Origin: Chiloscyllium plagiosum
Taxonomy: Eukaryota
Length of the DNA: 64,000 nucleotides
Assembly (NCBI RefSeq): GCF_004010195.1
Contig: NC_057718.1
Location: forward strand, 10,778,460 to 10,842,459
Direction: 5' to 3'
Made by a program: the position numbers and the translations under genes. Of the stretch, positions 11,047-58,924 are shown piece by piece (the stretch's first letter is position 1; every line of letters starts with the position of its first letter). The notes beneath the pieces are model-generated. The model was not told the origin of the DNA and did not search any database. It saw only the letters and a list, made by a program, of their open reading frames with translations.

Positions 11047-13138
11047 AAAAGCAAATTACTGTGGATGTTGGAACCTGAAACCAAAAGAGAAAATGCTGGA
11101 AAATCTCAGCAGGTCTGGCAGCATCTGTAAGGAGAGAAAAGAGCTGATGTTTCAAGTCTAACTGACCCTTTGTCAAAGCTAAAAAACAAGGGAGAAATAG
11201 GGAGGTATTTATACCAGGCTGAGAGAAGGTGAGTCATGGCTCCAGAAGCAAAGGTAGCAATAAAGAGGTGATAATGGTGCATAGAGAGATTATAGGGAGA
11301 TTGGGAGCTGTGAATGACCAAGGCTGAAGCCAGTGCTATGTGACAAAATATGTGGGGGATAGGTGAAGCAGAGGCAAAGTGGAAAACAGGGGAGAAGGGT
11401 AGCAAAGGGGGAAGAGGAGAGGAAAATGGTGATGAGAGAGTGGGGAGCGAGAGAAAGAGAGACAATCAAGAAATAGGAGGTACAGAACATAAAGATATTT
11501 TTATTTAATTTATTTTAATTATGGAGCAGAATGAAAACAGAGGGGTCAAGATGGGATAATCATCTGAAGTTGTTGAATCATTGTTGAGACCGGCAGGCTG
11601 TAACGTGCCTAGTCGGAAGATGCGATGCTGTCCCTCCAGTTTGCGCTGAGTTTCACTGGAACATTGCAGCAGGCCAAGGACAGACATGTGGGCATGGGAG
11701 CAGGATTGTGTGTTGAAGTGGCAAGCCACAGGAAGATCCGGGACCTGATTGAATACAGACCGAAGCGATCACCCAGTCGACGTTTTGTCTCTCCGATATA
11801 GAGGAGACCACATTGGGAGCAATGAATGCAATAGACCAAATTGAAAGAGGTACAAGTGAAACGCTACTTAATCTGAAATGAGTGTTTGGGGCCTTGGATG
11901 GTGAGCATGGAAGAGGTAAAGGGGCAGGTGTTGCATCTTCTGCGATTGCATGGGAAGGTGCTGTGTGTGATGGGTGAGGTGTTAGGTGTGATGGAGGAGT
12001 GGACTAGGTTGTCCAGGAGGGAACAATCTCTGAGGAATGCAGACTGGGGAGGGCAGGGAAGATGTGTTTAGTGGTGACGTCATGTTGGAGTTAGCGAAAA
12101 TGGCGGAGGATTATTCTTTGCATGTGAAGGCTGGTGGGGTGAAAAGTGAGAACAAGAGGGACCCTATCCTTGTTCTGGGAGGGGAAGGAGGGGGTGAGGG
12201 TTATGGTGCGGGAGATGAACCGCACACTGTCGCGAGCCCTGTCAACAACTGTAGGTGGGAAGCCACGGTTGGAGAAGGAGCACATATTAAGAGCACCACT
12301 TTGGAAAGTGGCCTCATTGGAACAAATGTGGCAGAGGCGAAGGAGCTGAGGTACGAAGAGCTGTAATCCAGATAGCTGTGGGAATCAGTGGGCTTGTAAC
12401 GGATATTAGTGGATGGACTATTGCCGGAAATGGAGACCGAAAGGTCAAGGAAAGGAAGGCAAGTGTCAGAGATGGACCAGGTGAAGGTGATGGAGGGATG
12501 GAAATTGGAAATGAAGTTTATGAATTTTTTGCAGGTCAGGACGAGACCATGAAGCCGCACCAAAATAGTCATCGATGTACCGATAAAGCAGTTGTGGGAG
12601 GGGACCCGGGTAGGCCTGGAACAAGAAATGTTCCATATACCCCATGAAAAGGCAGGCATAGCTAGGACGCATGCGGGTACCCATTGCTACACCTTTTCAT
12701 TCTGCTCTGTAATTTTATTTCATTTAAAAAATTTTTTTTTCACTTCTGTACCTCCTATTTCTTGTCTCTCTTTCTTTCGCTCCCCACTCTCGTGTCACCT
12801 TTTTCCTCTCCTCTTCCCCCTTTGCTACCCTTCTCCCCTGTTTTCCATTTTGCCTCTGCTTCACTCATCTTCCCTTCTCTCCTCCCCCGCCCCCCCCCCA
12901 ATATTTTGTCACATAGCACTGGCTTCAGCCTTGGACATTCACAGCTCCTAACCTCCCTATAATCTCTCTATGCACTGTCATTATCACCTCTTTATTGCTC
13001 CCTTTGCTTCTGGAGCCATGACTCACAATCTCTCAGTTTAGTGTAAATACCTCCCTATTTCTCCCTTTTTTTTTAGCTTTGACAAAGGATCAGTTAGACT
13101 CGAAACGTCAGCTCTTTTCTCTCCTTACAGATGCTGCC
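11047..13138 (-). mobile_element. Penelope-like element (RT + GIY-YIG remnant) with long inverted terminal repeats
   Basis: MGTRMRPSYACLFMG...RYIDD, YKPTDSHSYLDY, VYCIHCSQCGLLYIGETKRRLGDRF; ~430-bp inverted repeats (~11117-11545 vs ~12695-13138); 15-bp TSD aaagctatttgtgat at 11032-11046 and 13139-13153. Confidence 0.92.
13075..13113 (+). ncRNA. Hammerhead ribozyme motif with variant core UUGACAA (U3:A8)
   Basis: agct-TTGACAA-a-ggatc(agtta)gactc-GAAA-cg-TC-agct; second copy on the - strand at 11142-11180 has the same TTGACAA. Confidence 0.6.
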
Positions 13139-20385: not shown

Positions 20386-20684
20386 ATGTGGAGGTGCTGG
20401 TGTTAGACTGGGGTCAACAAAGTCAGAAGTCTCACAACACCAGGTTATAGTCCAACAGGTTTATTTGAAATCACAAGCTTTTGGAATGCAGCTCTTTCAT
20501 CAGGTGAAGTGGAGGGAAGTCCACAGGTGCAGAATTTATATGCAGAGAGATAATGGAAATCATTCTGCACAGAAAATTCTGTGCCTGTGTGCTTCTCTCA
20601 TCTGATGAAGGAGCAGTGAGCTGAAATCTTATGATTTCAAACAAACCTGTTGGACTATAATCTGGTGTCGTGTGACTTCTGACT
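20386..20684. mobile_element. Fold-back PLE mini-element (third terminal-repeat family) with decayed HHR
   Basis: Arms ~20419-20505 and ~20600-20685 are inverted; ctgatgaaggagcag..ctgaaa; TSD ttgggcagc(a/g)ttg at 20373-20385 and 20685-20697. Confidence 0.75.
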
Positions 20685-38991: not shown

Positions 38992-40754
38992 AGAAGTGAG
39001 TACTGCAGATTAGAGTTAAGATTAGAGCTGGAAAAGCACAGCAGGTCAGGGAGCATCTGAGGGGCAGGAAAAATTAATGTTTTGGGCAAAAGCCCTTTTA
39101 TCAGAAATTCCTCTCCCGACGTCCCCAACAGTACCCTTCCACTGATACTCTTATTCGTTTGACTGAACTGGTCCTCACCCTCAACAATTTCTCCTTCGAA
39201 TCCTCCCGCTCCTTCCAGACAAAAGAGGTAGCCATGGGCACCCACATGGGTCCCAGCTATGCCTGTCTCTTCATTAGCTATGTAGAACAATCCATGGAGT
39301 TACATCGGCACCACTCCCCATCTTTTCTTCCGCTACATTGACTGCATTGGCACCACCTTGTGCTCCAATGAGGAGGTTGGGCAGTTCATCAACTTCACCA
39401 ACACATTTCACCCCAACCTTAACTTCACCTGGACCGTCTCTGACATCTCACTCCCCTTCCTGGGCCTCTCCATCTCCATCAACAATGACCAACTCAACAC
39501 TGACATTTTTTACAAACCCACCGATTCCCACAGCTATTTGGATTACACCACCTCCCACCCTACCTCCTGCAAAAATGTTGTCCCGTATTCCTAATTCCTC
39601 CACCTCCACCACCACTGCATCTGCTCCCAAGAGGACCAGAGTTGAGAGTGTGTTGCTGGAAAAGCACAGCAGTTCAGGCAGCATCTGAGGAGCAGGAAAG
39701 TCGACATTTCGGCCTGGAGCCCTTCTTCATGAATCTGAATCAGAATTGGTTCTGGCCTGAAATATTGATTTTCCTGCTCCTCTGATGTTGCCTGACCTGC
39801 TGTGTTTTTCCAGCACCACACTCCTCAACTCTAATCTCCAGCATCTGCAGACTTCATTGTCTCTCAGGTGGAACAGTTCCACCACAGAACACATCAGATG
39901 GCCACCTCCTTCTAAAGATTGCAACTTCCCCTCCCATGTGGTTGAAGATACCCTCCAACGCATCTCATCCACGTCCCACACCTCCGCCCTCGAACCCCAC
40001 TCCTCCAACCGCAACGAGGACAGAACCCCCTGGTCCTCACCTTCCACCCCACCAATCTCCGCATAAATCGCATCATCTGCCGACATTTCCGCCACCTCCA
40101 ATTGGACCCCACTCCTATCCGCTTTCTGCAAGGACCGTTCCCTCTGCGACTACCTGGTCAAGTCCACTCCCCCCAACAACCCACCCTCCCCTCCCGGTAC
40201 CTTCCCCTGCCACCGCAGGAATTGCAAAAGCTGCGCCCACACCACCTCCTTCACCTCCATCCAAGGCCCCCAAGGAGCCTTCCACATCTATCAAAGTTCC
40301 ACCTGCACTTCCACACATGTCATTTATTGTATCCATCGCACCCAATGCCGTCTCGTTTACATTGGGGAGACCGGACGCCTTCTCGCAGAATGCTTCAGAG
40401 TACATCTCTGGGGCACCCACACCAATCAACCCCAGCATTCCGTGATCGAACATTTCAATTCCTTCTCCCGCTCTGTCGAGGACATGCAGGTCGTGGGCCA
40501 CCTTCACCACCACTCACTCACCACCCAATGCCGAGAGGAGGAACACCACCTCTTCCACCTCGGGACCCTTCAACCCCTGGGCATCAATGTGGACTTCACC
40601 AGTTCCCTGCTCCCCAGCCACACCCCCTCCCATTTAACTCCCCACCCCCGAGGCTCCCAGCCTCATTCCTGATGAAGGGCTTTTGCCCAAAACATCGATT
40701 TTCCTGCTCCGATGCTGCCTGACCTGTGCTTTTCTAGCACTACTCTAATCTTGG
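38992..40754 (+). mobile_element. Neptune-type Penelope-like element remnant with a nested fold-back mini-element (~39640-39865)
   Basis: VAMGTHMGPSYACLF, YKPTDSHSYLDY, Cys linker PCHRRNCKSC, YIGET GIY-YIG; inverted terminal repeat at the 5' end; candidate TSD ttcat(a/g)tgc. Confidence 0.9.
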
Positions 40755-42843: not shown

Positions 42844-44704
42844 CTGAGAAAGTGAGGACTGCAGATGCTGGAGATCAGAGTTGAGGAGTGTGGTGCTGGA
42901 AAAGCACAGCAGGTCAGGCAGCATCTGAGAAACAGGAGAATCAACGTTTTGGGCATAAGCCCTTCAGAAATGAGGCTTGTCGGCCGGGGGCTGAGAGATA
43001 AATGGGAGAGGAGTGGTATTGAGGGGAAGGTGGGGGAGAAGGTGATAGGTTGGAGAGGAGGGTGGAGTGGATAGATGGGAAAGGTGATGGACAGGTCAGG
43101 TAGGTGGCGCCAAGTTGGAGGCTTGGGACTGGGATAATGTGGAGGGGAAGGGAAATGAGGAAACTGGTGAAATCCACACTGACCCTTGCAGGGTCCCAAG
43201 GTGGAATATGAGGTATTCTTTCTCCAGGTGTTGAGTGATAAGGGTTTGGCTATGGAGGCAGCCCAGGACCTGCATGTTCTTGGGGGAGTTGAAGTGTTAG
43301 CCATGGGGGGGGGGGGGGGGGTTGGTTAGTGTTGGTGTCCCGGAGATGTTCTCTGAAGCAATCCGCAAGTTGGTGTCCTGCCTAGCCGATGTAGAGGAGA
43401 CCACATCGGGTGCAACGGATACGGTAGGTAACATTAATGGAGGTCCAGGTAAATTTCTGTGGGATGTGGAGGATCCTTTGGGGTCTTGGACGGAGGTGAA
43501 GGGAGAGGTGAGGGCACAGGTTTTGCACTTGCTGGAGGTGGCAGGGGAAGGTGCTGGGAGTGGGGTGTGGCTGGTGGGGGTCATGGATCTGACGAGGCAG
43601 TTGCGGAGGGAATGGTCTCTCTGGAACACAGATAAGGGTGGGAAGGGAAATATATCTCTGCTGGTGGGGTTTGTTTGTAGGTGGCAGAAGTGGCAGAGGA
43701 TGGAGATCGCAATTTTCCTTCCCACGAGGTTGACGGTGCCCTCCAGCGCATCTCCTTCATTTCCCACATCTCCGCCCTTGAACTCCACCTCTCCCAACGC
43801 AACAAGGAGAAAACCACCCTGGTCCTCTCTTCCGTACCACCAACCTCCGTATAAATTGCATCATCCTCTGCCATTTCCACCACCTACAAACAGACCCCAC
43901 CACCAGAGAGAGAGAGTTCCCTCCCCACACCTATTTGTGTTCAGGAGAGACCGTTCCCTCCGTGATGCTTTCATCAGATCCATGTCGCTCCACCAGCCTA
44001 CACCCCCCTTCAGGCACCTTCCTCTACCACTGCAGGAAGTGCAAAACCTGTGCCCATGCCTCCACCTCCACCCTCACTGCAAAGGATCCTTCCACATTCC
44101 ACAGAAATTTACCTGTACCTTCACCAATGTCATCTATCATATCCGTTGCACCCAATGTGGTCTTCTCTACATCAGGGAGACAGGATGCCAACTTTCGGAT
44201 CGTTTCAGAAAATGTTTCTGGGACACACACCCAAACCAACCTGTGGCTGAACGCTTCAGCGCCCCTTCTCACTCTGCCAAAGACGTTCAGGGGTTGGGAC
44301 ATCTCCATCGCCAAACCCTTACCACTTGGCGACTGGAAGCAGAATGCCTCCTATTCAGCCTTGGGACCCTGCGACTACATGTGGATTTCACCAGTTTCCT
44401 CATTTTTCCCCCCCCCCCGCCCACATTATTCCAGTCTCAAGCCTCCAACTCAACACCACCCTCCTGACCTGTCCATCACCTTTCCCATCTATCTTTCCAC
44501 CCTCCTCTCCAACCTATCACCTTCTCCCCCAACTTCATGTACCTATTGCATTCCAAACTGCCTCCTAACCCCCTCCCATTTATCTCTCACCTCCCCAGCT
44601 TATAAACCTCATTCCTGATGAATGGTTTATGCCCGAAAAGTCGATTCTCCTGCTCCATGGATGCTGCCTGACGTAATGTGCTTTTCCAGCACCACACTGC
44701 ACTC
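42844..44704. mobile_element. Head-to-head Neptune-type PLE: two inverted 3' halves (GIY-YIG + terminal repeat)
   Basis: Left arm (-) ~42846-43705 and right arm (+) ~43710-44700; CKTC, CTQCGLLYIRETG; TSD tggtccatct at 42834-42843 and 44705-44714. Confidence 0.9.
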
Positions 44705-46545: not shown

Positions 46546-47319
46546 GCCACTGTTATTCAGAGTCTGATTGATGTGGCCTTCGAGAAAACCCAGGTGGTTG
46601 TTGGCTTGGTGATGTTACGAAGATATACAGTTTTGTTTTGGTCATCTGTCTGTCTTTTAGCTGTCTAGGATATGTGGTCAGAAGATTCATTTTGCTTTGT
46701 TGATCTTTAATCTCTCACCATTGTTAATTGCATTTTAATAAGGATATTCTTCAGATACATATGTTACCTTCTTTGGGGAAAGAATGTGGGTAAGCCAGGC
46801 TTCTGCTGAATCAGGTCATCTTTGAGATATGATTCATGCTGATGATTGTGTTAAGCTCCGAAGTAGGGAGGAAAGAAATTCTAATTTAGTTCTTTTTAAA
46901 ATGTGCTTCTGATGAATTTTAGACTTCTTGCAGTCAAGTAGAAGGAACAAGTGACTGGTTCCAGAAATAGCCAGCCATTGTCAGGACAGAAGCAAATGCA
47001 TCCTCTCTCAGAATGTGGCACCTCTTGGCATTGTGTGAACATTCAACTGAGCCAACACAAGGACTCAAATGAGGTGTTTACCTCAGCTCGTTCTGAATGA
47101 AGGAGACAATTAAAACCCGTTATTGCTTAACTTGGTGAAAATGTCTGTATCATCATCTGCTGAACACAGCAGGTTTTGAACATCACAAACCCACCTTGTG
47201 AGCTAAGTGGCGAAATGGAACTGTTGCTTTGTTGAATCACCTTTAATTATGTAGCTTTTGACTTTTGTTCATTAATCTGGTGGTAGTAACTGTTCCAGTT
47301 CCAGGTTAAGCTCTATTCC

Positions 47320-47523
47320 AAAGCATTTCCAAAGCCCCTCCCCCAAGTCCCTCCTCCCTACCTTTTATCTTAGCCTGCTGGACACACTTTCCTCATTCCT
47401 GAAGAAGGGCTTATGCCGAAACGTCGATTCTCCTGCTCCTTGGATGCTGCCTGACCTGCTGCGCTTTTCCAGCAACACATTTTCAGCTCTGATCTCCAGC
47501 ATCTGCAGCCCTCACTTTCTCTC
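47320..47523 (+). mobile_element. Young PLE terminal-repeat mini-element with HHR (47395-47429)
   Basis: 13-bp TSD taagctctattcc at 47307-47319 and 47524-47536; attc-CTGAAGA-agggcttatgcc-GAAA-cgTC-gatt. Confidence 0.88.
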
Positions 47524-47843
47524 TAAGCTCTATTCCTGTCTCTGATCTCAATATCTCTTGAAAGTTTGGCTCCTAAAGAGAGAAGCTTTTTTGCCTGTGA
47601 AGTGAATCAATTTGCAGTTTACAAAATCAGCAGTTCAGTTGCATCAGAGTTCCTATGAAGGTGACTGCTGTGTACAGTCTTCTGAAAGAACCTCAATTGA
47701 GCATTAACTTACTGGACTTTTTCAACTCGTGGACTCATTCTAATCCTTTGATTTTAAATCACTTAAATTATAACTTCCTTCCCTTTTTCATTTCGTGGGT
47801 ACATGTTTGTGTTTCATGATTTCCTCAGGTTTAGATGGAAGTA

Positions 47844-48085
47844 GGCAGAAGTGGGTATTCTAGATGCTGGAGATTAGAGTTAAGATGAGAGTGGTGCTGG
47901 AAAAGCACAGCAGGTGGGGCAGCATCTGAGGAGCAGGAAAATTGACGTTTTGGGCAAAAGCACTTCATCAGAAATCTTTATTAGGATTCCTGATGAAGTG
48001 CTTTTGCCCGAAATGTAAATTTTCCTGCTCCTCTGATGCTGCCTGACCTGCTGCACTTTCCAGCACCACTCTAATCTTGACTTTG
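47844..48085. mobile_element. Fold-back PLE mini-element
   Basis: ~95-bp inverted arms; TSD gatggaagta at 47834-47843 and 48086-48095. Confidence 0.85.
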
Positions 48086-48498
48086 GATGGAAGTAATAGT
48101 CTATTTTGATTTAACCCTAAAGAATTTGCTTAGGATCATTTTAAGTTGGACTTCATGAACCGTGTTTGGAAAGATACATCACTACATATTTTAAAAAAAG
48201 AAATAAAAGAAAATTTTAAAACTGTTCACTGTTAAAAGCAGGAGATAGTTTTAAAAAATGCAGTTTACCTCTCTTTGCGCCCCCACCCTCCCCATCAGTG
48301 TCAGATTTTGGATTGTCTTTAACCTAATTGATAATCTTAACTGAGTCTGGCAGGTCTGCCTTGCTTCAGGATGTGGTTAACGTTTGAGTTGTATTGGCTC
48401 ATCCATTGACATGTCTCTGGAGTGTCTCTATTCAATTGTGGATAACGCTACTTCCTAATCTTGATGCATGGCTTTAATTGGACAAAACTGGGTTTAAG

Positions 48499-48646
48499 TT
48501 GAAACTTTATTGCAGATTCCTGAAGAAGGGCCTGTGCCCGAAACGTCGAATCTCCTGTTCCCTGGATGCTGCCTGACCTGCTGTGCTGTTCCAGCAATAA
48601 AGTTTCAACTTTGATCTCCAGCATCTGCAGACCTCACTTTCTCCTC
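48499..48646 (+). mobile_element. Very young HHR mini-retroelement
   Basis: 16-bp TSD caaaactgggtttaag at 48483-48498 and 48647-48662; body identical to 53694-53826. Confidence 0.92.
48514..48553 (+). ncRNA. Minimal type I hammerhead ribozyme, intact core
   Basis: agattc-CTGAAGA-a-gggc(ctgt)gccc-GAAA-cg-TC-gaatct: 6-bp stem I, 4-bp stem II, GUC cleavage triplet. Confidence 0.85.
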
Positions 48647-49732
48647 CAAAACTGGGTTTAAGCATTATTGACCTCATTGGGAATAGAATTCGTATTCTAA
48701 AATTTTTGAACCAAACTGATAACATTATGATCCTAGTCAATGGTAATACAGACAAGTTGGATTGAAAAGAAGACCTCAAAAGAACGTATGTTTAGTTTTT
48801 GCATTTGGTTACAATACAGTAATGATTAATGACTTAAATATATTTGCTCACGGGCGCAGATGTTGTTCAACACAGAGCATAAATAAGTTCTATATTGTTT
48901 ATTTTCCTTGAGTAATAAACTTATGAAAATTTTAATAAACTTCAAGGCTAAGTTTCAACTGTTTCCCCAGTGCTATACATTGCAGGTATGCAATCACAGA
49001 GAAATATCTCAAGTTAACTTTTTAAAAAAAATTAACTGGTTTCTTCCTGGCTTTTTTTTAACGGGCAGTTTTGCGAGGACTTTGAGTCAATAGCCATGTA
49101 CCCCTCAATTCTAATTACCTAAATTTTTTCCGTTCTGACAAATTGAAGAAATCTGTCCAAACTCCATTGGCTTAGAAGTTCCACAGACGAGAAATCACTT
49201 CTGGTGAGGTGACTGGCTTTCCTGTACTGATTTGATTTTTCCTGCTCCAGCTAGGAGAGAGCCTGTTCTCTGATGATTCAAGACCTTGAACCTTCTGTTC
49301 TGAAACTAAAAGTAAACTAATGGCCTCAATATGTTTACTCTGTTATGAGCTCAACAGCATAACATTTTAACCATTCACACTCTATGTACTTAACTGAAGT
49401 CATCTACTTTCTTAGAAATTATGTGTTTAGCTCCATGTTAAAGCATTTTCGACTAATGCGCAGAGACTAGACTTCAGATACTTAATACTCACTGTGCTGC
49501 AATCATTATTGCACTTGGCATCATAAATGAGGATTCTGAGTCTTTGCTCATTCATATGTTAAAGAAACTGTCTGCATTTCACTGAGCACAATCAGTGTGC
49601 ATCAGTTGAGGGAGGTCCGTTTTTATCTTAGGTTTAATTTTGAAAAACCAAAGAAAACAGATACCTTAGTGTTTAACACAAACAAATCCCTCTATCATCC
49701 CAGGTTGATTCAGAATTCATGTTCTTACTATT

Positions 49733-50100
49733 GTCATAGAGTCCTACAGCATGGAGACCAGCCCTTTGGCCCAAACTGGTCCATGGCAACCAATGTGTCT
49801 ACCTACGCGAACACGGTTTTCCTCCATTAGCCTATATCCTTCTAAATCTTTCCTATCCATGTATTTGTCCAAATGCCTTTTAAATGTTGTTAATGTACCT
49901 GTCTCAACCACTTCTGCTGGCAGCTAATTCCATATGCGTATCACCCTCGCTGTGTAAAAAATCAAGTTGCCCCACATGTTCCCTTTTATTCTTTCCCCTA
50001 TGAACTTAAACTGATGTCCACTAGTCCACAATTCCCCAACCCTGAGAAAAAGACTGAGTGTATTCACCCTATCCATGTCTCTCCATGATCTGATACACTA
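49733..50100 (-). mobile_element. CR1 3' fragment
   Basis: gtcatagagtcctacagcatggagacc tail and downstream CR1 sequence. Confidence 0.8.
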
Positions 50101-50109
50101 AGAGACATC

Positions 50110-52690
50110 GAGTCATAGAGATGTACAGCATGGAAACAGACCCTTCGGACCGACCCGTCCATGCCGATCAGATATCCCAACCCAATCTAGTCCCACCTGC
50201 CAGCACCCAGCCCATATCCTTCCAAACCCTTCCTATTCATATACCCATCCAAATGCCTCTTAAATGTTGCAATTGTACCAGCCTCAACCACTTCCTCTGG
50301 CAGCTCATTCCATACACGTACCACCCTCTGCGTGAAAAAGTTGCCCCTTTGGTCTCTTTTATATTTTTTCCCGCTCACCCTAAACCTATGTCCTCTAGTC
50401 CTGGACTCTCCGACCCCAGGAAAAAGATTTTGCCTATTTACCCTATCCATGCCCCTCAAAATTTTGTAAACCTCTTTCAGGTCACCCCTCAGCCTCCGAT
50501 GCTCCAGGAAAAACAGCCCCAGCCTGTTCAGCCTCTCCCTACAGCTCAAATCCTCCAACCCTGGCAACATCCGTGTAAATCTTTTCTGAACCCTTTCAAG
50601 TTTCACAACATCTTTCCGATAGGAAGGAGACCAGAATTGCATGTATTATTCCAACAGTGGCCTAACCAATTTCCTGTACAGCTGCAACATGACCTCCCAA
50701 CTCCTGTACTCAATACTCTGACCAATAAAGGAAAGCATACCAAATGCCTTCTTCACTATTCTATCTATCTGCGACTCCACTTTCAAGAAGCTGTGAACCT
50801 GCACTCCAAGGTCTCTGTTCAGCAACACTCCCTAGGATCTTACCATTAAGTGCATAAGTCCTGCTAAGATTTGCTTTCCCAAAATGCAGCACCTCGCATT
50901 TATCTGAATTAAACTCCATCTGCCACTTCTCAGCTCATTGGCCCATCTGTTGTAATCTGAGGTAGCCCTCTTCGCTGTCCACTACACATCCAATTTTGGT
51001 GTCATCTGCAAACTTACTAACTGTACCTCTTATGCTTGCATCCAAATCATTTATGTAAATGACAAAAAGTAGAGTACCCAGCACCGATCCTTGTGGCACT
51101 CCACTGGTCACAGGTCTTCAGTCTGAAAAACAACCCTCCACCATCACCCTCTGTCTTCTACCTTTGAGCCAGTTCTGTATCCAAATGGCTAGTTCTCCCT
51201 GTATTTCATGAAATCTAACCTTGCTAACCAGTCTCCCATGGGGAACCTTGTCGAATGCCTTACTGAAGTCCATATAGATCACATCTACCACTCTGCCCTC
51301 ATTAGTCCTCTTCGTTACTTCCTCAAAAAACTCAATCAAGCTTGTGAGACATGATTTCCCACACACAAAGCCATCTTGACTATCCCTAATCAGTCCTTGC
51401 CATTCCAAATACATGTATATCCTGTCCCTCCGGATTCCCTCCAACAACTTGCCCACCACTGAGGTCAGGCTCACTGGTCTGTAGTTCCCTGGCTTGTTCT
51501 TACCACCCTTCTTAAACAGTGGCACCACTTTAGCCAACTCCAGTCTTCCGGCACCTCACCTGTGACTATCGATGATCTAAATATCTCAGCAAGAGGCCCA
51601 ACAATCACTTCTCTAGCTTCCCCCAGAGTTCAAGGTTACACCTGATCAGGTCCTGGGGATCTATCCACCTTTACCTGTTTTCAAGACATCCAGCACTTCC
51701 TCCTCTGTAATCTGGACATTTTGCAAGATGTCACCATCTATTTCCCTATAGTCTATATCTTCCTTATCCTTTTCCACAGTAAATACTGATGCAAATTACT
51801 CATTTAGTATCTCTCCCATTTTCTGCGACTCCACACAAAGACCGCCTTGCTGATGTTTGAGGGGCCCTATTCTCTCCCTAGTTACCCTTTTGTCCTTAAT
51901 GTATTTGTAAAAACTCTTTGGATTCTCCATAATTCTATTTGCCAAAGTTATCTCATGTCACCTTTTTGCCCTCCTGATTTCCCTCTTAAGTATACTCCTA
52001 CTTCCTTTATACTCTTCTAAGGATTCACTCGATTTATCCTGTCTATACCTTAGATTAGATTAGATTAGATTACTTACAGTGTGGAAACAGGCCCTTCGGC
52101 CCAACAAGTCCACACCGCCCCGCCGAAGCGCAACCCACCCATACCCCTACATTTACCCCTTACCTAACACTATGGGCAATTTAGCATGGCCAATTCACCT
52201 GACCTGCACATCTTTGGACTGTGGGAGGAAACCGGAGCACCCGGAGGAAACCCACACAGACACGGGGAGAATGTGCAAACTCCACACAGTCAGTCGCCTG
52301 AGGCGGGAATTGAACCCGGGTCTCTGGCGCTGTGAGGCTAACCACTGTGCCACCGTGCCGCCCAATGACATATGCTTCCTTTTTCTTAACCAAATCCTCA
52401 ATTTCTTTAGTCATCCAGCATTCCCTATACCTACCAGCCTTTCCTTTCACCCTGACAGGAATATACCTTCTTTGGATTCTCATTTTCTCATTTCTGAAAG
52501 CTTCCCATTTTCCAGCCGTCCCATTACCTGCGAATATCTGCACCCAATCAGCTTTTGAAAGTTCTTGCCTAATACCATCAAAATTGGCCTCTCTCCAGTT
52601 TACAACTTCAACTTTTAGATCTGGTCTATCCTTTTCCATCATAGAATTATGGTCGCTGGCCCCAAAGTGCTCCCCAACGACACATCAGTC
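50110..52690 (-). mobile_element. Relatively young CR1/HER1-type LINE, ORF2 from upstream of RT to the 3' end
   Basis: NWREANFDGIRQEL; PLFKKGGKNKPGNYRPVSLTS; YMDFSKAFDKVPH; QFWSPSYRKDVVKLERVQ; WNELPEEV. Confidence 0.95.
52051..52363 (-). mobile_element. HE1-type V-SINE inside CR1 ORF2
   Basis: Full SINE with (attag)n tail; CR1 sequence continues on both sides. Confidence 0.92.
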
Positions 52691-53607
52691 ACTCTGACCA
52701 TCTAGAGAAAAAAGTTCCAGATTGTCCAACCTCTCCCTGTAAGTCAGACCATTGAGTCCTTGCAGCATCCTTGTAACCTACTTCTGCTCTCTTTCCCCTT
52801 TAATAACATCCTACAGCATGATGATCAAAACTAAACACAGTACTCCAAGTGTGGCCTCACCAACGTTCATACCACAGCACTCAATCAAGACTTTTTTGAC
52901 AGCACCTTCCAAACCTGTGACTCTACCACTAAGTAGTACATAACTTCCCAACTTGGATACTCATGCCCTGACGGATGAAGTGCAGCATGCCACAAGCCTC
53001 CTTCACTGCCCTGTTTACCTGTGACTCCACTTTCATAGAACCATGCACCTGATCTCCAAGGTCCTTCATTCCACTACACTCCTTAGGGCTCTACCATTGA
53101 CCATGAAACCCCTACCTTGATTTGACTTAGCAAAATGCAAGACCTCACACTTATCTATATTAAACTCCATTTGCCATTTCTCAGCCCACTTCCCCAGCTG
53201 GTCAAGATCTTGTTGCAAGTTCTGGTAACCTCCTTCACTGTCCACAATATTGCCTATTTTAGTGTCATCTGCAAACCTTGTAATCGTGCCTTGTACGTTC
53301 TCATCCAAATCATTGATCTAGATAACAAACAGCAGTGGGCCTAGCACTAGCCCCTGAGGCACTACGCAAGTCATGGGCCTCCAGTCCAACAAGCATCCTT
53401 CAGCTATTAATCTCTGTTTCTTACCATCAAGCCAATTGTGTATCCAGTTTAGTGGGTCCCCTATATTCCATGCTATCTAACCTTCTAGAGCAGGCTACCA
53501 TGTGGAACCTTATCAAAGGCCTTAGTAAAATCCATATAGACTCTGTCCACCACCCTGCCCTTGTCAACCTTAACAAATTTGTGAGGCATGATCTCCCACG
53601 CACAAAG

Positions 53608-53824
53608 TTGAAACTTTATTGCTGGAACAGCACAGCAGGTCAGGCAGCATCCAGGGAACAGGAGATTCGACGTTTCGGGCACAGGCCCTTCTTCAGATTC
53701 CTGAAGAAGGGCCTGTGCCCGAAACGTCGAATCTCCTGTTCCCTGGATGCTGCCTGACCTGCTGTGCTGTTCCAGCAATAAAGTTTCAACTTTGATCTCC
53801 AGCATCTGCAGACCTCACTTTCTC
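53608..53824. mobile_element. Very young fold-back HHR mini-retroelement inserted in a CR1
   Basis: 15-bp TSD ctcccacgcacaaag at 53593-53607 and 53825-53839; perfect inverted arms 53603-53696 / 53701-53794. Confidence 0.93.
53695..53734 (+). ncRNA. Minimal type I hammerhead ribozyme, intact core
   Basis: Identical to 48514-48553. Confidence 0.85.
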
Positions 53825-55219
53825 CTCCCACGCACAAAGCTCTGCTGACTGTTCCTGATTAAATTGTCTTTTCCAAATGCATGCATGTCACCTCAGAATC
53901 TTCTCAAGTAACTTACCCATCACAGATGTTAGGCTTACTGGTCTATAGTTCGCAGGTTTTTCTTTGCAGCTCTTCCTGAATAATGGCACAACATTTGCTA
54001 CCCTCCAGTCTTCTGGGATGTCACCCCTGGCTAACGATGATGTAAAAACATCAGCCAGGGACCCCAGAATTTCTTCTCTCATCTGTAGTAGTATTCTTGG
54101 ATATATCTGGTCAGGATCAGGAGATTTAACCACCTTCATACATTCCAATATGTTCAGCAACACCTCTACTGTGATATAGATTGTCCCCAAGGTATGACCA
54201 CTAACTTCCCAAGTCTCCATGCTGTTCTCATGGGAAGCAGGAGAAATATTCATTTAAGACCTCGCCCATCTCCTCCAGTTCTACATGTATATGTCTACTT
54301 TGATCCTTGAGGGGTCCTATTCTCTCTCTAGTTACTCTTTTTCCTTTAATATACTTAAAGAATCTTTTGGATTCACCCTAATCTTCTCAGCCAAGACTAT
54401 CTCCTCTTCTCTTTTTTTGCCCTCCTGACTTCTTTCTTCAGTAAACTCCTGGGTCCTCTGTATATCTCCAGGGATTCCCTTGATCCCAGCGGCCTGTACC
54501 TGAGCCATACCTCCTCCTCCTTTTCTGGTCAAAGCCTCAATAACTCTCTGCATCCAGGGTTCCCTATTCCTGCCAATCTTGTCCTTCATCCTCACTGGAA
54601 CCTTGAACTCTAGCTATCCCACTTTTAAAGGTCTTCCACTTGCTGAAGGTCCCTTTCCCTGCAAACAAGCTACTCCAATCAACCCCTGCAAGCTCCTGTT
54701 TAATTTCATCAAAATTTGCCTTGCCCCAGTTTAGAACTTAGCCTGTGGACCAGTTTTGTCCCTCTCCATAACTATTTTAAAATTAATAGAACTATGGTCA
54801 CTGGTCCCAAAGTGCGCCCCTTTCTGTACTTTCAGTATTTGTCTTTTCCATTTGCCCAAGATGCAACAAAGCAGTTCCTTATTATATAATAGCTTAATTT
54901 AGCAAAGTTGAAAGCAGATTTGCTTTGGAACACTTCTCATGTTTCCCGATTCTTGGATGTTCCATACATTTTTTTCACTGTGCTTCTAGACAACATCTCA
55001 AGATATCATAAAGTTCATATAGCAAATAGGCTAGGTTTGTTTAATGAGAATACATAAATTAGACGGGGGAAGTGATTGTTAAAGATCGTTGTCTTTAGAT
55101 CCAACTTTGTAAATTTATGGAAGCCCTTTGTGTCTTTGAGTACAGTGCTTATTGCATTATTACACAGAGACTCTGCAATTTTCAAAGACTATTTAAGCTA
55201 TAATCACATAGATGACAAT

Positions 55220-55865
55220 CTCAAATGAGAGAAGCTAACTAGCTGCGCTGTGACATTCACTGGCATTACCATTGCTGAATCCTCCACTGTAATTATCCTG
55301 TGTGTTATCATTGACCAGGTACTGAATTGGGCCAATGTTTTAAATGTAGTGACTGAAAGGACAACAAGCAAATAATTCACCACCTTTTTCATCAATGTAT
55401 GCCCACAATTTATAAGGTGCACATTGAGTGTGAGAGCGAATGCTGCCCACTTGTCTGGATGAGTGCAACTCCAATACCATCCAGGATAAGGCAACCCTAC
55501 TAATTGAAACCACATCCACCACTTTCAGCATACACTTCTTTTATCACTGACAGTTGTGTACTATCTAAAAGGCATACCACAGCAACCCATCAAGGCTTTT
55601 TTGACAGCACCTTCCAAACCTGTGACTCTGCCACCAGGAAGGACCAGGACAGCAGATGCATGGGAACGCGATCATTGACAAGTTTGGAATTATATTATCA
55701 CATTTTCACTTTGGGTCAGAATCTGATAACGCCACCTATCAACATTGTGGGGCCACCTGCACTGGAAGGACTGTCACATTTCAGGGAGGTGGCTCACTAC
55801 CATCTTCTCGATGGTAATTAAGGATGGTCAACAAATGCTGGCCTTGTTAGTGATATCCATATCTC
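55220..55865 (+). mobile_element. Old LINE (CR1/L2 group) 3' fragment
   Basis: gacagcaccttccaaacc...caccatcttctc-like sequence and taattaaggatggtcaacaaatgctggcc tail. Confidence 0.65.
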
Positions 55866-56968
55866 TCAAACAATTTTTTTTGAAAATAATTCACTGGATA
55901 AGAAAGACTCTGTGAGATAACTTATTATCTTGATAACAGACTCATTCAAACACGACTGAACGAAATTTCAAAAGTTTTAGTCTGTATGCTTTTAATTTGA
56001 ACAGTTGATATATGAAGTACGACATTACTAGTAATATCTTTCAGCCCTTGTACCTTATTCCATTTACAAAACTACTAGCTGAGCTGACCACTCTGTTCTC
56101 TAAATACCATATAGACAGAACACACAGGCCATTGTGTTGTGCGTTCTTTTAAGGTTTGTTGTGTAATAGATCACTTTTAAATGTCAGACCACAACGTACT
56201 GTCATAGCGATAAGACATTTAAAGTACCGTGGGCTTGAGTTGATGTAAGACTTTACTTATTGATTCTGAATAATCGTATTGATCGTATTAATTAACCTTT
56301 TCACACGTGTTGTGACGCACCTCTGGAACAGGTGGGATTTGAATCAGGGTCTTTTGACCCAGAGGCAGGGATGTGATCACTGCTGCAGGAGATCCTGATT
56401 AATCTTATGTTGGTGTTACAGACATAGAAATCACCAGACATAGTACTTCTCCACTTGAAAACTTAAAATTTCACTGAGATGATTCAGTGTGATGCAGAGA
56501 GAAAGTGACAGCTGAAAAATTAACGCACTGGGTGTGAGCAACAGAAAATAAAACGTTGCTGAATCATCTTTTCAGTTCGCTGAATGTTCTCAAGTTCCTC
56601 TTGACATTTCATGGTTAAATCTCTCCTTCACTGGGAATATAGAACCAAATTGGATTATTATTTGAGAAATGATAGCCAAAACACGAAGTGATTTCCTTGA
56701 ATAGTGCCATGTGATTTAAGCTCATCACTAGAATTTTACTTAATTTATATAAAGATTTGACAACTGCTGAATCTCTTACAGCAAAGGTATAAATGCATTG
56801 CATATCAATATATTGTTTCAGAAACAGAAAACTAACACAAACAAATGTCAGGTACCTCTTCACTCTGTTTAATGGGAGCAGTAGAGATGCAGAATGAATG
56901 CAAATTACATTTTGCTCCATTTCATGAAAAAATTGAAGGTATTCTAGAATAAACCCAAACTGTTTACA

Positions 56969-57232
56969 GGAGAAAGTGAGGTCTGCAGATGCTGGAGATC
57001 AGAGCTGGAAATGTGTTGCTGGAAAAGCGCAGCAGGTCAGGCAGCATCCAGGGAACAGGAGAATCGACGTTTCGGGCATAAGCCCTTCTTCAGGAATGAG
57101 GAAAGTTTGTCCAGCAGGCTAAGATAAAAGGTAGGGAGGAGGGACTTGGGGGAGGGGCGTCTTTCCACCTATCACATTTCCGACGCCCCTCCCCCAAGTC
57201 CCTCCTCCCTACCTTTTATCTTAGCCTGCTGG
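56969..57232 (-). mobile_element. Young PLE terminal-repeat mini-element with inverted tail and HHR (57062-57097, - strand)
   Basis: TSD ccaaactgttt(a/g)ca at 56955-56968 and 57233-57246; the - strand reads attc-CTGAAGA-a-gggc(ttat)gccc-GAAA-cgTC-gatt. Confidence 0.9.
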
Positions 57233-58924
57233 CCAAACTGTTTGCACACCAGTTTAGATTTTGGAACACAATAAGATATAATTGCGTGAATCCCAAAGCA
57301 TTCCTTTCTGGAACGCACAAAATACCCCTCTACAGTACGTAAACACATCCTTGGTTCAGAACTTTGACAGATTTAATTTCCTTGTGAACTTAAAATCCGA
57401 GTCTGGAAGATCTGAGTTACTTTCTAGATTTTCATATACTTGAATTTAAATGTTCTTAATTTCAAATAAGCTCTTCAGGACCTCCTCCAAACTCTTCTGA
57501 TCTGGAAGTATTACTAAATGCCTTACTCTATCTTCCTTTCTCAGGAGTGTTGCTTTACACATCCATCTACATTCAAGGACTTATGCAATGGTGTGTCCAA
57601 AATTGAAAAAATTACACAATTGTTTACCGTGTTTGGTTGTAAACTTAACGAGTGTACTTAAAAACCCATTCGTTCTGAACTCTAATCCCTCGAACTGTTT
57701 TAAAATCCAAACTTAAAATGGTATCAAAAATTTAGAAATTATCACGCAGTTTACATCATGTTTTACGCCGGCCTTTTTTTTTTGTATCCTTATCTTAGCA
57801 TTAGTCATGTGCATAACTAACCTTTTGGCAGCATTTGCAGGGGAGTGGTAGGTGGATCCATACTTGTGAAATTCATTGTGGAAGTTTACCCCAAGTTGTT
57901 AAACTTCATTAGTTACACCTTGCATAGGTTCTATAAGAAAAATGCTATTGGTTCCCTTTATTCCTGAGTAACTGAATGTTCCTGTTAGAGAAACTTTTGA
58001 ATATTTGTTGAGAGAAGGATCGGATTTGGCATGCTTATTATTATAAAAAGCCTGTTGGCATTTTATATGCTTGCATGGAGATTGGCCATATGGGTTGAGT
58101 AATCAAAAATTATATTACCATCATCTCAGCATGAGTCATTGACATCAGCAGAGGTGAGGGTAAAATACAATTTTGTGCATAAATTATATAACTATTTAAT
58201 TACTTGCTATAACTTGTTTGTAGAGTTAATCATTTTTAGAGAAAATGGGTAAAATATTGTAGTTGGAAATCTAATTCAATAGTGGGAGAGGGAGGAATGA
58301 ATAAATCAGTACATGCAATGTTTAACAAACTGCATGTGAACTTTGATTATCCTCTTGCAGCATATCCAAAAGTATTCTCAATACTGTTTCCTGAGCAAGT
58401 TCTCAGAGTCAACTGCCTATGTTTGGCGACACTTGTCCAGTCGTGCCAGAACATTAGATCGACAGCAATATGGACATCTCAAATCCTATCCTTTTTGTCT
58501 TCAAGAATCAACACTTATTGGCCACTTATTCCCCTTTACCTGATGTGTGTGTTTTAGGTTATTTGGAAGAAGAAAAATGCATGTTTTCATATTACAAGCC
58601 AAGCATGATAACTAGTTTTATATTTTAACCACAGATTTTGATTATAATCAATAGTTTTCATGTTTATGAAAGAGATCTGGTTGAATACTCTTCTAATATC
58701 GCAAATGCATATAATTGGCAACTGGATAATATGTGCAATTTATGTGTAGAATAGTGGGATTAGAGAAGGGCAGTGCACTCCTCTCATCTGAGTCATAATA
58801 TTATTGATTTAAATTACACACTAAATCAATCTTTACAAGAAAGCAATAAAGATTAAGTTATATTGCCTTTACAAAACATTAGTTACTGAGTTGTGACCAA
58901 TTTATGACCAAGTTAAAGTTAAAT

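What the first reader, a model, noticed from the sequence alone, without database searches (positions are those of the whole stretch)
48483..48662. ~134-nt hammerhead-ribozyme mini-retroelement, identical to a second copy 5 kb away (retrozyme-like, probably recently active)
Seen: 48513-48646 and 53694-53827 are identical by eye and have different 15-16-bp TSDs, so they are independent insertions. Both begin at the same base (cagattc, the 5' arm of HHR stem I) and end at ctttctcct(cc). The unit has no ORF and carries a complete CUGAnGA/GAAA/GUC core. Relative to related copies (47395, 57062: attc...gatt, loop ttat) it has a perfect 6-bp stem I (agattc/gaatct) and a changed stem II loop (ctgt) with the stem preserved. 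Known: PLE terminal repeats carry minimal HHRs and non-autonomous HHR retrozymes exist. Inference: this is a discrete non-autonomous family mobilised in trans by Neptune RT/GIY-YIG, with structure conserved over sequence. I cannot tell from here whether it is already catalogued.
Basis: partly seen in the sequence, partly recalled or inferred. Interest (0 to 1): 0.8.

Follow-up and report, generated by a model that had tools for sequence, protein, structure and literature searches.

The report
Truncated Penelope-like element ends with hammerhead
The two identical 134-base units are the hammerhead-bearing end pieces of a very young, very abundant Penelope-like jumping gene, inserted in the truncated and partly inverted way typical of that class, so this is an ordinary case and not a new mini-element.

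Summary
The sequence facts hold. The two stretches are 100% identical over 135 nt, each insertion has its own target-site duplication (15 and 12 bp), and each carries a complete minimal hammerhead.

The boundaries were misread. Copy 2 is a 220-nt hairpin: an 89-nt inverted arm plus a 131-nt forward arm. Copy 1 carries a 14-nt inverted piece. The shared start "cag" is junction sequence, not an element end.

The 131-nt core is the terminal repeat (pLTR) plus a 37-nt "tail" of a ~4-kb Penelope-like element. That element's GIY-YIG endonuclease ORF has the Neptune-type CX4CxxC linker.

Genome-wide exact counts:
- hammerhead 36-mer: 11,888
- same hammerhead with the native internal sequence upstream: 5,339

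In an unbiased sample of 25 insertions, 12 are such hairpins. All arms start at two fixed outer points 37 nt apart. 27 of 37 arms end at the 5' edge of the hammerhead, and none ends at its cleavage site.

This is the published PLE insertion signature: both strands primed, two internal RT start sites, a tail, and an inverted truncated copy. I found no within-family covariation and no evidence of circles.

The scan has flagged PLE-type hammerheads on other genomes before. Verdict: real, recently active, already known in kind.

The parts
48484..48498 (.). Copy 1, left target-site duplication (aaaactgggtttaag, 15 bp)
   Evidence: Read directly. The same 15 bases recur at 48648-48662.
48499..48512 (-). 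Copy 1, short inverted arm (ttgaaactttattg). It is the reverse complement of 48596-48609, so it starts at the same outer point as the tail-less arms of other copies.
   Evidence: BLAST of the unit on the window: q1-16 matches 48609-48594 at 100%. The same 14-16 nt piece precedes the unit in L004, L008, L018 and L030.
48513..48515 (+). Junction bases 'cag' between the inverted piece and the forward arm. They are not part of the native terminal repeat.
   Evidence: Native upstream sequence is ..ctctctgctc|attcc in the same subfamily and ..tttcctc|attcc in the TTAT subfamily. Exact count is 109 with cag against 5,339 with ctc.
48516..48610 (+). Copy 1, terminal-repeat body (pLTR positions 1-95), ending where tail-less arms of other copies end. 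It contains AATAAA at 48596-48601.
   Evidence: 100% identical to terminal repeats of longer copies (L064, L068, L089). Tail-less arms end at positions 89-105, with 95 the most common.
48514..48553 (+). Minimal type I hammerhead. Helix I agattc/gaatct (the first two bases are junction-derived). Core CUGAAGA 48520-48526. Extra A 48527. Helix II GGGC/GCCC with loop CUGU 48528-48539. GAAA 48540-48543. Palindromic A-CG-U. C17 at 48547, so the predicted cut is 48547|48548.
   Evidence: Pattern match. The minimum-free-energy fold shows helix I (6 bp) and helix II (4 bp). It meets the four features listed by Cervera and de la Pena 2014. There is no Rfam hammerhead match at E<=10. Cleavage was not tested.
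48611..48647 (+). Copy 1, 37-nt 'tail' (ttgatctcc..ctttctcctcc). It is present on the forward arm only.
   Evidence: Inverted arms lack it. Craig 2021 and Frangieh 2024 describe a 30-40 bp tail at one end, lying between two RT start sites.
48648..48662 (.). Copy 1, right target-site duplication
53596..53607 (.). Copy 2, left target-site duplication (ccacgcacaaag, 12 bp). Its last bases overlap the possible start of the inverted arm.
   Evidence: The repeat arm runs from 53603.
53608..53696 (-). Copy 2, inverted tail-less arm (reverse complement of pLTR positions about 5-95), carrying a hammerhead on the minus strand (53669-53696).
   Evidence: Inverted repeat of 94 nt, 100%, with a 4-nt spacer. 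Minus-strand hammerhead pattern. RNA across both arms folds as one hairpin, -201.6 kcal/mol, z = -30.
53697..53827 (+). Copy 2, forward arm: pLTR positions 1-95 with hammerhead (53701-53728), plus the 37-nt tail.
   Evidence: 100% identical to copy 1.
53828..53839 (.). Copy 2, right target-site duplication
47330..47521 (+). Older copy of the TTAT subfamily. It has about 65 nt of internal 3' region (..ccttttatcttagcctgctggacacactttcctc) before the terminal repeat.
   Evidence: 88% to L110 3' region.
56968..57239 (-). Older TTAT-subfamily copy. It has an inverted repeat within the internal 3' region (57104-57161/57182-57239), then the terminal repeat with hammerhead (57066-57093).
40130..40672 (+). 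Remnant of a related PLE endonuclease ORF (CX4CxxC linker, GIY-YIG core), 60% identical in protein to the endonuclease joined to this family's terminal repeat.
   Evidence: tblastn and translation. Pfam gave no hit at E<=0.01.

Best explanation
Both copies are ordinary insertion products of one very young, very abundant endonuclease-bearing Penelope-like element (PLE) with a Neptune-type linker. Each contains only the last ~131 nt of the element. That piece is the terminal repeat (pLTR), which carries a minimal dimer-type hammerhead, plus a 37-nt tail. It is joined head to head to an inverted, tail-less partial copy (89 nt in copy 2, 14 nt in copy 1), and the whole is flanked by a 12-15-bp target-site duplication.

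How it most likely arises (steps inferred by analogy with the Anolis Poseidon element studied in vitro):
1. The PLE protein cuts both DNA strands.
2. It primes reverse transcription on each strand at one of two fixed internal sites of the element RNA. Here these are pLTR position ~95 and position ~131, which are 37 nt apart.
3. Each cDNA runs towards the RNA 5' end. More than half stop or switch template within the first 7 nt of the repeat, just past the hammerhead.
4. The two cDNAs are joined, which gives the inverted pair.

The short copies lack the coding region. They also lack the internal 5' region that, in the Anolis element, binds the protein. So they are most likely dead-on-arrival by-products and not a self-propagating family.

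The hammerhead is a passenger in these copies. A single copy is not expected to cleave, and in copy 2 it would be locked in a 94-bp hairpin if both arms were transcribed together.
For: Shown here:
- Identity, duplications and inverted arms.
- The tail end ..ctcactttctcctc is followed, in 12 of 12 fetched loci chosen by the internal query (so 12 of 12 is partly by construction), by an internal region that opens an ORF (MPSLKKL..). The exact junction word occurs 196 times in the genome.
- In L110 a GIY-YIG ORF (Pfam 22.8 bits, cut-off 22.6) with a CX4CxxC linker runs directly into the internal 3' region and then the terminal repeat. The whole is 4.08 kb between 15-bp duplications.
- Exact genome counts: hammerhead 36-mer 11,888; with native CTC upstream 5,339; with at least 32 nt of native upstream sequence 3,970; with 'cag' upstream 109. 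The reversed-pattern controls gave 0.
- Unbiased sample: the first 30 pattern hits, which make 25 independent insertions. Of these, 12 are hairpins, 6 are solo tail-bearing, 6 are solo tail-less and 1 is tandem.
- In that sample the outer ends fall at positions 126-131 (19 arms) or 89-105 (17 of 18 arms). Inner ends fall at positions 1-7 in 27 of 37 arms, and 0 of 37 fall at the hammerhead cut.
- The turn sequence differs in 11 of the 12 hairpins, so each formed anew.
- Flanking direct repeats of 8 nt or more were found in 18 of 24 insertions.
- The hammerhead meets all four published min-HHR features.

From papers read:
- PLE insertions are highly 5'-truncated, form partial tandems, often carry an adjacent inverted 5'-truncated copy, and have a 30-40 bp tail at one end (Craig 2021, passages).
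- The Poseidon protein cuts and extends both strands and starts RT at two adjacent internal sites that bound the tail. Its binding motif lies 3' of them, and hammerhead mutants still insert (Frangieh 2024, main text).
- Most min-HHRs are single, 'probably truncated PLEs', with some pairs on opposite strands 100-700 bp apart (Cervera and de la Pena 2014, parts 1-2).
Against: - The reverse-transcriptase region of this family could not be read. L110 has 1,489 N there and also holds an internal inverted duplication, so no intact autonomous copy was shown.
- The mechanism steps are taken from another PLE clade in another vertebrate.
- The sharp pile of inner ends at pLTR positions 1-7 is not explained by the published model.
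- One turn junction (..cgtttc[ga]g-gca|g|attcc) recurs in 7 of 21 'gcag' cases at sites with different duplications. That could mean some hairpins are copied as units.
- Pairs of the 49-mer exactly 200 nt apart recur at 5 or more places on one contig, which points the same way.
- The first sample of 30 loci seemed to show a fixed 5' end. It was biased, because the search tool seeds only on rare words.
Confidence: 0.85

Rival explanations
1. One reading: a discrete, self-propagating ~134-nt (or hairpin-shaped ~220-nt) non-autonomous element. It would be transcribed from its own copies and mobilised in trans by the PLE enzyme.
For: - Many copies in the first genome sample begin at (T)GCAGATTC with a duplication right next to it.
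- 189 exact 'gcagattcctgaagaagggc' copies lie across three loop subfamilies.
- 7 of 21 such cases share one junction at different sites.
- Li et al. 2026 (abstract and results read) argue that animal non-LTR retrozymes, with consensus lengths of 51-972 bp and many monomers, are non-autonomous pLTR derivatives.
Against: - That first sample was biased towards the rare junction words.
- In the unbiased sample, 0 of 25 insertions have 'gcag'.
- 'cagattc' accounts for 109 of about 11,888 hammerheads.
- The 21 'gcag' cases have at least six unrelated origins: inverted arm cut in the helix II loop (7), flank or duplication (7), inverted arm cut elsewhere (3), inverted tail (2), direct partial copy (1) and internal region (1).
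- Hairpin turns differ in 11 of 12 hairpins.
- The short units carry neither the upstream TTTTAT-containing region nor the internal 5' region.
Confidence: 0.08
2. A retrozyme in the strict sense. Tandem hammerheads cut out a unit-length RNA, which is circularised and then reverse-transcribed.
For: - The family does form short direct arrays elsewhere. The pLTR-to-internal junction words recur at periods of 194-224 nt (five in a row on C8, three on C2).
- L037 has three direct repeats with predicted cut sites 224 and 461 nt apart.
- The ACGU palindrome allows a dimeric helix III.
Against: - The two window copies are single (copy 1) or inverted (copy 2), not tandem.
- 0 of 37 arms begin at the hammerhead cut site. 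L042 is the only case I saw in any sample.
- Frangieh 2024 found that hammerhead cleavage is not needed for insertion, and found no RNA-seq ends at the cut site.
Confidence: 0.03
3. Copy 1 was inserted as a full hairpin like copy 2 and later lost most of its inverted arm by deletion within the palindrome.
For: - Copy 1 equals copy 2 minus ctggaac...ccttctt, with the same outer 14 nt and the same inner 'cag'.
- Long perfect palindromes are unstable. This is general knowledge, recalled.
Against: - Other copies also keep only the first 14-16 nt of the inverted arm but continue differently: L004 ..ttattgc|aggaacc, L008 ..ttattgc|attcc, L030 ..ttattgc|aggaagaagg. That fits an early template switch during insertion.
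- That sample was selected with a query that contained the 14-nt piece.
Confidence: 0.15

Closest known systems
Canonical insertion architecture of endonuclease-bearing Penelope-like elements: pLTR, inverted 5'-truncated copy, 30-40 bp tail (Evgen'ev and Arkhipova 2005, cited only; Craig et al. 2021, PMC8557442, passages read; Frangieh et al. 2024, PMC11167929, main text read)
   Same: - High 5' truncation.
- An inverted truncated copy next to the 5' end.
- A tail of 37 nt on one arm only.
- Two fixed outer ends, as expected from two RT start sites.
- Variable-length duplications.
- Partial tandems in longer copies.
- A GIY-YIG ORF followed by a terminal repeat with a hammerhead.
   Different: - The studied element is a Poseidon of a lizard, where the hammerhead overlaps the ORF start and the RT start sites lie 111-118 nt inside the ORF. 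Here both start sites lie about 35-70 nt before the ORF start.
- More than half of all arms here stop within 7 nt of the 5' edge of the hammerhead. I did not find that pile-up described in the passages I read.
Minimal hammerheads of metazoan PLEs (Cervera and de la Pena 2014, PMC4209133, parts 1-2 read; Lunse et al. 2017, recalled and not read)
   Same: - CUGANGA and GAAA boxes.
- An unpaired base between positions 9 and 10.1.
- A G10.1-C11.1 pair.
- A one-pair helix III with a palindromic core (ACGU).
- A short helix I.
- Thousands of mostly single copies per vertebrate genome, with some pairs on opposite strands.
   Different: - The paper stresses high sequence variability within a genome, with D. 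virilis as the exception. Here 11,888 copies share an exact 36-mer, as in an ongoing invasion.
- Helix II is 4 bp, not the 6-8 bp of the trematode families.
Animal non-LTR retrozymes (Cervera and de la Pena 2020, PMC7229834, search listing only; Li, Clavereau and Pollet 2026, bioRxiv 10.64898/2026.07.22.740005, abstract and results read)
   Same: - Short non-coding units with a type I hammerhead.
- Related to PLE pLTRs.
- Monomers scattered through the genome.
   Different: Retrozymes are defined by tandem units that yield circular RNA. The two window copies are not tandem, and nothing here shows circles. The family's 194-224-nt arrays elsewhere are the better match.
Twin priming of LINE-1, which produces 5' inversions (recalled, not read)
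   Same: The inverted 5' segment and the forward 3' segment lie within one pair of target-site duplications.
   Different: Here both arms start at fixed internal sites of the template and overlap in content. There is no poly(A).

Membership tests
Penelope-like element (endonuclease-bearing) | C-terminal GIY-YIG endonuclease with CCHH cysteines, in the ORF that precedes the terminal repeat | tested here: met
   L110:492-1094(-) hits Pfam GIY-YIG at 22.8 bits (cut-off 22.6). Its core is IIYCIRCSRCGLLYIGETGR..REH. Its C-terminus runs into the internal 3' region and then the terminal repeat.
Penelope-like element (endonuclease-bearing) | PLE/telomerase-like reverse transcriptase in the same ORF | tested here: inconclusive
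   The region is an N run (1,489 N) in the only full-size copy fetched. The RVT_1 remnants in the window (50938-51555, 53069-53317) were not linked to this family.
Penelope-like element (endonuclease-bearing) | pLTR from partial tandem copies; an inverted 5'-truncated copy; a 30-40 bp tail at one end only | tested here: met
   Direct repeats are seen in L034, L037 and L089. 12 of 25 insertions have an inverted arm. The 37-nt tail is on one arm only.
Neptune clade of PLEs | CX2-5CxxC zinc-finger-like linker upstream of the GIY-YIG core (criterion quoted from Craig et al. 2021) | tested here: met
   FPCTRRRCNTCAH in L110 and FPCHRRNCKSCAH at window 40130-40672. The Nematis clade shares this motif, and no RT phylogeny was made, so the clade is probable, not proven. 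A different PLE lineage in this genome lacks the motif in 11 of 11 ORFs (L034, L047-L059).
PLE minimal hammerhead (min-HHR) | Catalytic boxes; a base between 9 and 10.1; a G10.1-C11.1 pair; palindromic 15.2-16.2 | tested here: met
   CUGAAGA, A, GGGC..GCCC, GAAA, A-CG-U-C, read. The features are as listed in PMC4209133.
PLE minimal hammerhead (min-HHR) | Covariation that supports the helices | tested here: not met
   Within the family (26 distinct sequences), the covariation score is 0.061 against 0.067 in shuffles, and 464 of 500 shuffles score at least as high. Helix II varies on one side only. Between this family and a second hammerhead family in the same genome, the helix I, II and III pairs differ on both sides. 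That comparison was read by eye, not scored.
PLE minimal hammerhead (min-HHR) | Self-cleavage (as a dimer or with protein help) | not testable with these tools
   The RNA reads laid were from a poly(A) single-cell library, and no pile of read ends was flagged at the cut site. That library is not suited to the question.
Rfam hammerhead families | Match to a curated covariance model | tested here: not met
   There was no hammerhead match at gathering score over the whole window, nor at E<=10 over 47000-58000.
Non-LTR retrozyme | Tandem units, each with a hammerhead, giving unit-length circular RNA | tested here: not met
   The window copies are single or inverted. Circles are not testable here. 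Arrays of the same family exist elsewhere.
Discrete short non-autonomous family (SINE-like) | A fixed, inherited 5' end shared by independent insertions | tested here: not met
   109 'cagattc' against 5,339 native and 11,888 in all. 0 of 25 in the unbiased sample. The 'gcag' junctions have mixed origins.

The most novel reading that the evidence does not exclude
The pile-up of inner ends in the first 7 nt of the terminal repeat may mark the capped 5' end of the element's own mRNA.

What suggests it:
- 27 of 37 arms end there, and by exact-word counts more than half of 11,888 arms genome-wide do.
- The pile-up sits on an initiator-like TCATTCC.
- It lies 27-32 nt downstream of a TTTTAT box.

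If so, most insertions of this PLE would be run-off, 'strong-stop'-like cDNAs of its 5' UTR. They would be made because the enzyme starts reverse transcription internally, just upstream of where it binds. The genome's 10,000-plus hammerheads would then be dead-on-arrival by-products. Their junctions would map, in vivo and at scale, both RT start sites and the transcription start of a Neptune-type PLE.
Probability: 0.3. Interest if true: 0.45.

Novelty: already known. Interest (0 to 1): 0.15.

Why it matters
It matters little as a discovery. Minimal hammerheads in PLE terminal repeats, their thousands of solo and inverted copies in vertebrate genomes, and the tail/inverted-copy architecture are all in print.

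It has some value as a natural data set:
- One family has about 12,000 near-identical arms whose two outer ends lie 37 nt apart. That matches, in a different PLE clade and host, the two internal RT start sites mapped in vitro for the Anolis element.
- No arm starts at the hammerhead cut site, which fits the in-vitro finding that cleavage is not needed for insertion.
- The unexplained hot spot at the 5' edge of the hammerhead, and the short tandem arrays of the same family, are leads for people who study PLE transposition or animal retrozymes.

For annotation, these hairpins score as sub-threshold microRNA precursors and should be masked as PLE.

Tried and rejected
- **Rfam.** No hammerhead match at gathering score or at E<=10. 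The many sub-threshold miRNA matches are the PLE hairpins.
- **DNA search of the genome with unit positions 33-149.** It returned nothing, because the tool skips very common words. This showed that the sample was biased, so I dropped its apparent fixed 5' end as evidence.
- **L034 as the autonomous partner.** I first took L034 and its relatives L047-L059 for the partner and rejected this. That ORF (VIYKIPCKDCNKHYI, no linker motif) belongs to another PLE lineage, into which a truncated copy of our element had inserted. The Atlas look-up of that ORF therefore says nothing about this family.
- **Pfam GIY-YIG over the whole genome.** It gave one weak hit only.
- **A single 'gcag' lineage.** Rejected.
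- **An extra G from a copied cap before attcc.** Only 2-3 of 8 arms that start at position 1 have a G there, so this is not supported.
- **RNA runs.** No RNA holder was listed.
- **Laying reads.**
  - X21 gave 0 reads.
  - X20 gave 516 reads on both strands, and 81% of them run on into unlike sequence.
  - No pile of starts or ends was flagged.
  - 32 reads diverge after pLTR position 95 with an A-rich consensus. These could be poly(A) tails or the flanks of tail-less arms, so I draw no conclusion.
- **Full-length copy.** L110 has an N run and an internal inverted duplication, and the long 'open frames' may be inflated by N runs.
- **Earlier notes of the scan.** There are none for this genome. 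Notes on other genomes did not change my reading.
- **Dfam/Repbase.** These could not be consulted, so I cannot say whether this family is catalogued.
- **Supplements of the papers.** Not opened. Supplementary figure S2 of Frangieh 2024 and the supplementary figures of Cervera 2014 may bear on the comparison.
Full report
**What is in the sequence**

BLAST of window 48498-48648 against the window gives 53694-53828 at 100% over 135 nt (sequences). Each insertion has its own target-site duplication:
- Copy 1: aaaactgggtttaag at 48484-48498 and 48648-48662.
- Copy 2: ccacgcacaaag at 53596-53607 and 53828-53839.

The hammerhead core is complete. The pattern CTGANGA..GAAACGTC occurs 5 times in the window and 0 times in each of 100 shuffles.

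The boundaries, however, were misread:
- Between the left duplication and 'cagattc', copy 1 has 14 nt (48499-48512). These are the reverse complement of 48596-48609 in the same unit.
- Copy 2 has an 89-nt inverted arm there. This gives a perfect 94-nt inverted repeat with a 4-nt spacer.
- The 'cag' of copy 2 is simply the end of that inverted arm.

**What the 131-nt core belongs to**

In the genome that holds the window (3.56 Gb), the end ..ctcactttctcctc is followed in many loci by GAAGATTTCAACC.., which opens an ORF (MPSLKKLSASLYKDF..). This was so in 12 of 12 loci fetched with that internal query, and the 40 scored full-length matches were 97-100% identical out of 1,966 first-look candidates. 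The exact junction word occurs 196 times.

Upstream of 'attcc', long copies read ..ccttttatcttctcctgctgaacactctctgctc. The older TTAT subfamily in the window reads ..ccttttatcttagcctgctggaca[ac]actttcctc. Neither reads 'cag'.

In locus L110, 4.08 kb lies between 15-bp duplications. There a GIY-YIG ORF (Pfam 22.8 bits, cut-off 22.6) with the linker FPCTRRRCNTCAH runs through ..LSQPDPSRLAPP into this internal 3' region and then into the terminal repeat with the hammerhead.

So positions 1-131 (attcc..ctcctc) are the terminal repeat of a PLE. By the CX2-5CxxC criterion quoted in Craig et al. 2021, the element is of Neptune (or Nematis) type. The window itself holds a related endonuclease remnant with the same linker at 40130-40672.

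The reverse-transcriptase part could not be read. L110 has 1,489 N there and an internal inverted duplication.

I first mistook another PLE lineage (L034, L047-L059; no linker motif in 11 of 11 ORFs) for the partner. In L034 our element is merely inserted into it.

**How common each form is**

My first genome sample suggested a fixed 5' end at (T)GCAGATTC. A search with the rest of the unit found nothing because its words are too common for the tool, so that sample had been seeded by the rare junction words. I therefore used exact-word counts, which cover the whole genome:

| Word | Exact count |
|---|---|
| 36-nt hammerhead | 5,960 + 5,928 = 11,888 |
| Hammerhead with native 'ctc' upstream | 5,339 |
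| Hammerhead with at least 32 nt of native upstream sequence | 3,970 |
| 'gcagattcctgaagaagggc', any loop subfamily | 189 |

All reversed-pattern controls gave 0.

Twenty 'gcag' loci, giving 21 occurrences, turned out to be a mixed bag:
- 7 have an inverted arm cut in the helix II loop.
- 2 come from the inverted tail.
- 3 have an inverted arm cut elsewhere.
- 7 are flank or duplication sequence.
- 1 is a direct partial copy.
- 1 is an internal-region junction.

**Architecture in an unbiased sample**

The first 30 hammerhead hits on contig 1 make 25 independent insertions. L080 shares a flank with L068 and was set aside. Counting positions from 'attcc' as 1:
- 12 of 25 are hairpins, 6 are solo arms with tail, 6 are solo arms without tail, and 1 is a tandem, internally deleted copy.
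- All 19 tail-bearing arms end at positions 126-131.
- 17 of 18 tail-less arms end at positions 89-105, most often at 95.
- Inner ends lie at positions 1-7 in 27 of 37 arms. Six arms run on into the internal 3' region, and four end at 9, 14, 58 or 62.
- No arm begins at position 33, just after the predicted cut. I saw that only once, in L042.
- The turn sequence differs in 11 of the 12 hairpins, so the hairpins were formed anew at each insertion.
- Flanking direct repeats of 8 nt or more were found in 18 of 24 insertions.

The window's copy 2 is a standard member of the hairpin class. Copy 1 is a hairpin whose inverted arm is only 14 nt long.

**Comparison with what is known**

- Craig et al. 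2021 (passages) describe PLE insertions as highly 5'-truncated and arranged in partial tandems. They often have an inverted 5'-truncated copy next to the 5' end and a 30-40 bp tail at one end only.
- Frangieh et al. 2024 (main text) showed several things for a lizard Poseidon element:
  - The protein cuts and extends both strands.
  - Reverse transcription starts at two adjacent internal RNA sites that bound the tail.
  - The RNA needed for binding lies 3' of those sites.
  - Hammerhead mutants still insert.
  - RNA-seq shows no ends at the cut site.
- Cervera and de la Pena 2014 (parts 1-2) defined the minimal PLE hammerhead. It has an unpaired base after A9, a G10.1-C11.1 pair, a palindromic 15.2-16.2 and a short helix I. 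They noted that most copies are single, 'probably truncated PLEs', with some pairs on opposite strands.

Every one of these points is met here: CUGAAGA, A, GGGC/GCCC, GAAA, A-CG-U-C. The two outer ends 37 nt apart are what two RT start sites would leave.

Li et al. 2026 (abstract and results) already argue that animal retrozymes derive from PLE pLTRs.

**Function of the hammerhead in these copies**

- The copy 1 RNA folds with helix I (6 bp) and helix II (4 bp), but it is no more stable than shuffles (z = -0.55).
- RNA across both arms of copy 2 would form one 94-bp hairpin (-201.6 kcal/mol, z = -30). That would hide the ribozyme.
- Within the family there is no covariation. The score is 0.061 against 0.067 in shuffles, and 464 of 500 shuffles score as high (26 sequences).
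The 'perfect 6-bp helix I' owes two of its pairs to junction bases.
- A second hammerhead family in the same genome (for example window 20596-20638) differs in helices I, II and III on both sides of the pairs. That fits the literature but says nothing about selection on these copies.

**RNA evidence**

No holder of the sequence is on record as RNA. Reads of one poly(A) single-cell run covered the element on both strands, mostly inside longer transcripts: 516 reads, 81% of which run on into unlike sequence. No pile of read ends was flagged. This neither supports nor excludes cleavage or circles.

**What remains unexplained**

- Why more than half of all arms stop within 7 nt of the 5' edge of the hammerhead. 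This spot is an initiator-like TCATTCC lying 27-32 nt after a TTTTAT box; those motif names are recalled. It could be the mRNA start or a pause and jump site.
- Why one turn junction recurs in 7 of 21 'gcag' cases.
- Why pairs exactly 200 nt apart recur.

These observations keep a small chance alive that some hairpins are copied as units.

**Verdict**

This is a correct catch of a hammerhead-bearing retroelement end, and the family is clearly young. But it is the ordinary insertion product of a Penelope-like element, a kind already described, and not a new mini-retroelement.

Noticed in passing
G000 C8:24157650-24158513 and C2:96929348-96929788 (not fetched); L037 (flipped) 1146-1961: The junction word 'terminal repeat to internal region' recurs in short direct arrays with periods of 194-224 nt: five in a row on C8 and three on C2. 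L037 has three direct repeats with predicted hammerhead cut sites 224 and 461 nt apart. These arrays, not the window copies, look like animal retrozymes.
   Followed up: partly
window 20596-20638 (+); also L006, L028, L036, L049, L065, L076: There is a second, different minimal hammerhead family (..CCTGATGAAGGAGCAGTGCTCTGAAAGCTAGTG..). It has a 5-bp helix II and an AGCU palindrome. Compared with the first family it differs on both sides of several pairs.
   Followed up: partly
window 57104-57239 and 47902-48059: Hairpin-shaped PLE insertions score as microRNA precursors below threshold in Rfam (for example MIR1858 at 74 bits against a gathering score of 137, and mir-641 at 58 bits against 100). 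These are false leads for annotation.
   Followed up: yes
L090, L091, L094, L099, L100, L103: The same hairpin turn (..cgtttc[ga]g-gca|g|attcc) occurs at six loci with different duplications, while turns in the youngest subfamily are nearly all different. Either there is a pause site in the helix II loop, or a hairpin is being copied as a unit.
   Followed up: partly
G000 C1, e.g. 1863538/1863738, 26033252/26033452, 38275859/38276059, 79417718/79417918, 86748057/86748257: Pairs of the 49-nt word on opposite strands lie exactly 200 nt apart at five or more places. L068 and L080 share one flank. A long-armed hairpin or a composite repeat seems to be amplified as a block.
   Followed up: no
L038 1896-1912 (pLTR positions 82-98); window 48596-48610: The youngest subfamily has a canonical AATAAA where the older TTAT subfamily has AACACA. 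32 RNA reads diverge about 10 nt after it with an A-rich consensus, at the same point where tail-less arms end. I could not tell poly(A) tails from the flanks of tail-less copies.
   Followed up: partly
L034 1-915; L047-L059: A different PLE lineage is extremely abundant. Its endonuclease core reads VIYKIPCKDCNKHYI, and no CX2-5CxxC linker was found in 11 of 11 ORFs. The search gave 42,614 first-look candidates.
   Followed up: partly
window 31700-57300: This 25-kb stretch is packed with PLE pieces of several ages, including about 20 terminal-repeat hits and endonuclease remnants at 39954-40615, 43099-44418 and 11568-12173. Reverse-transcriptase remnants at 50938-51555 and 53069-53317 were not assigned to a family.
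   Followed up: partly
L038:1461-1945 in public runs: Near-identical words of the element are held in runs labelled with four different organism codes (A-D). The young family, or close relatives of it, is therefore not confined to one label.
   Followed up: no
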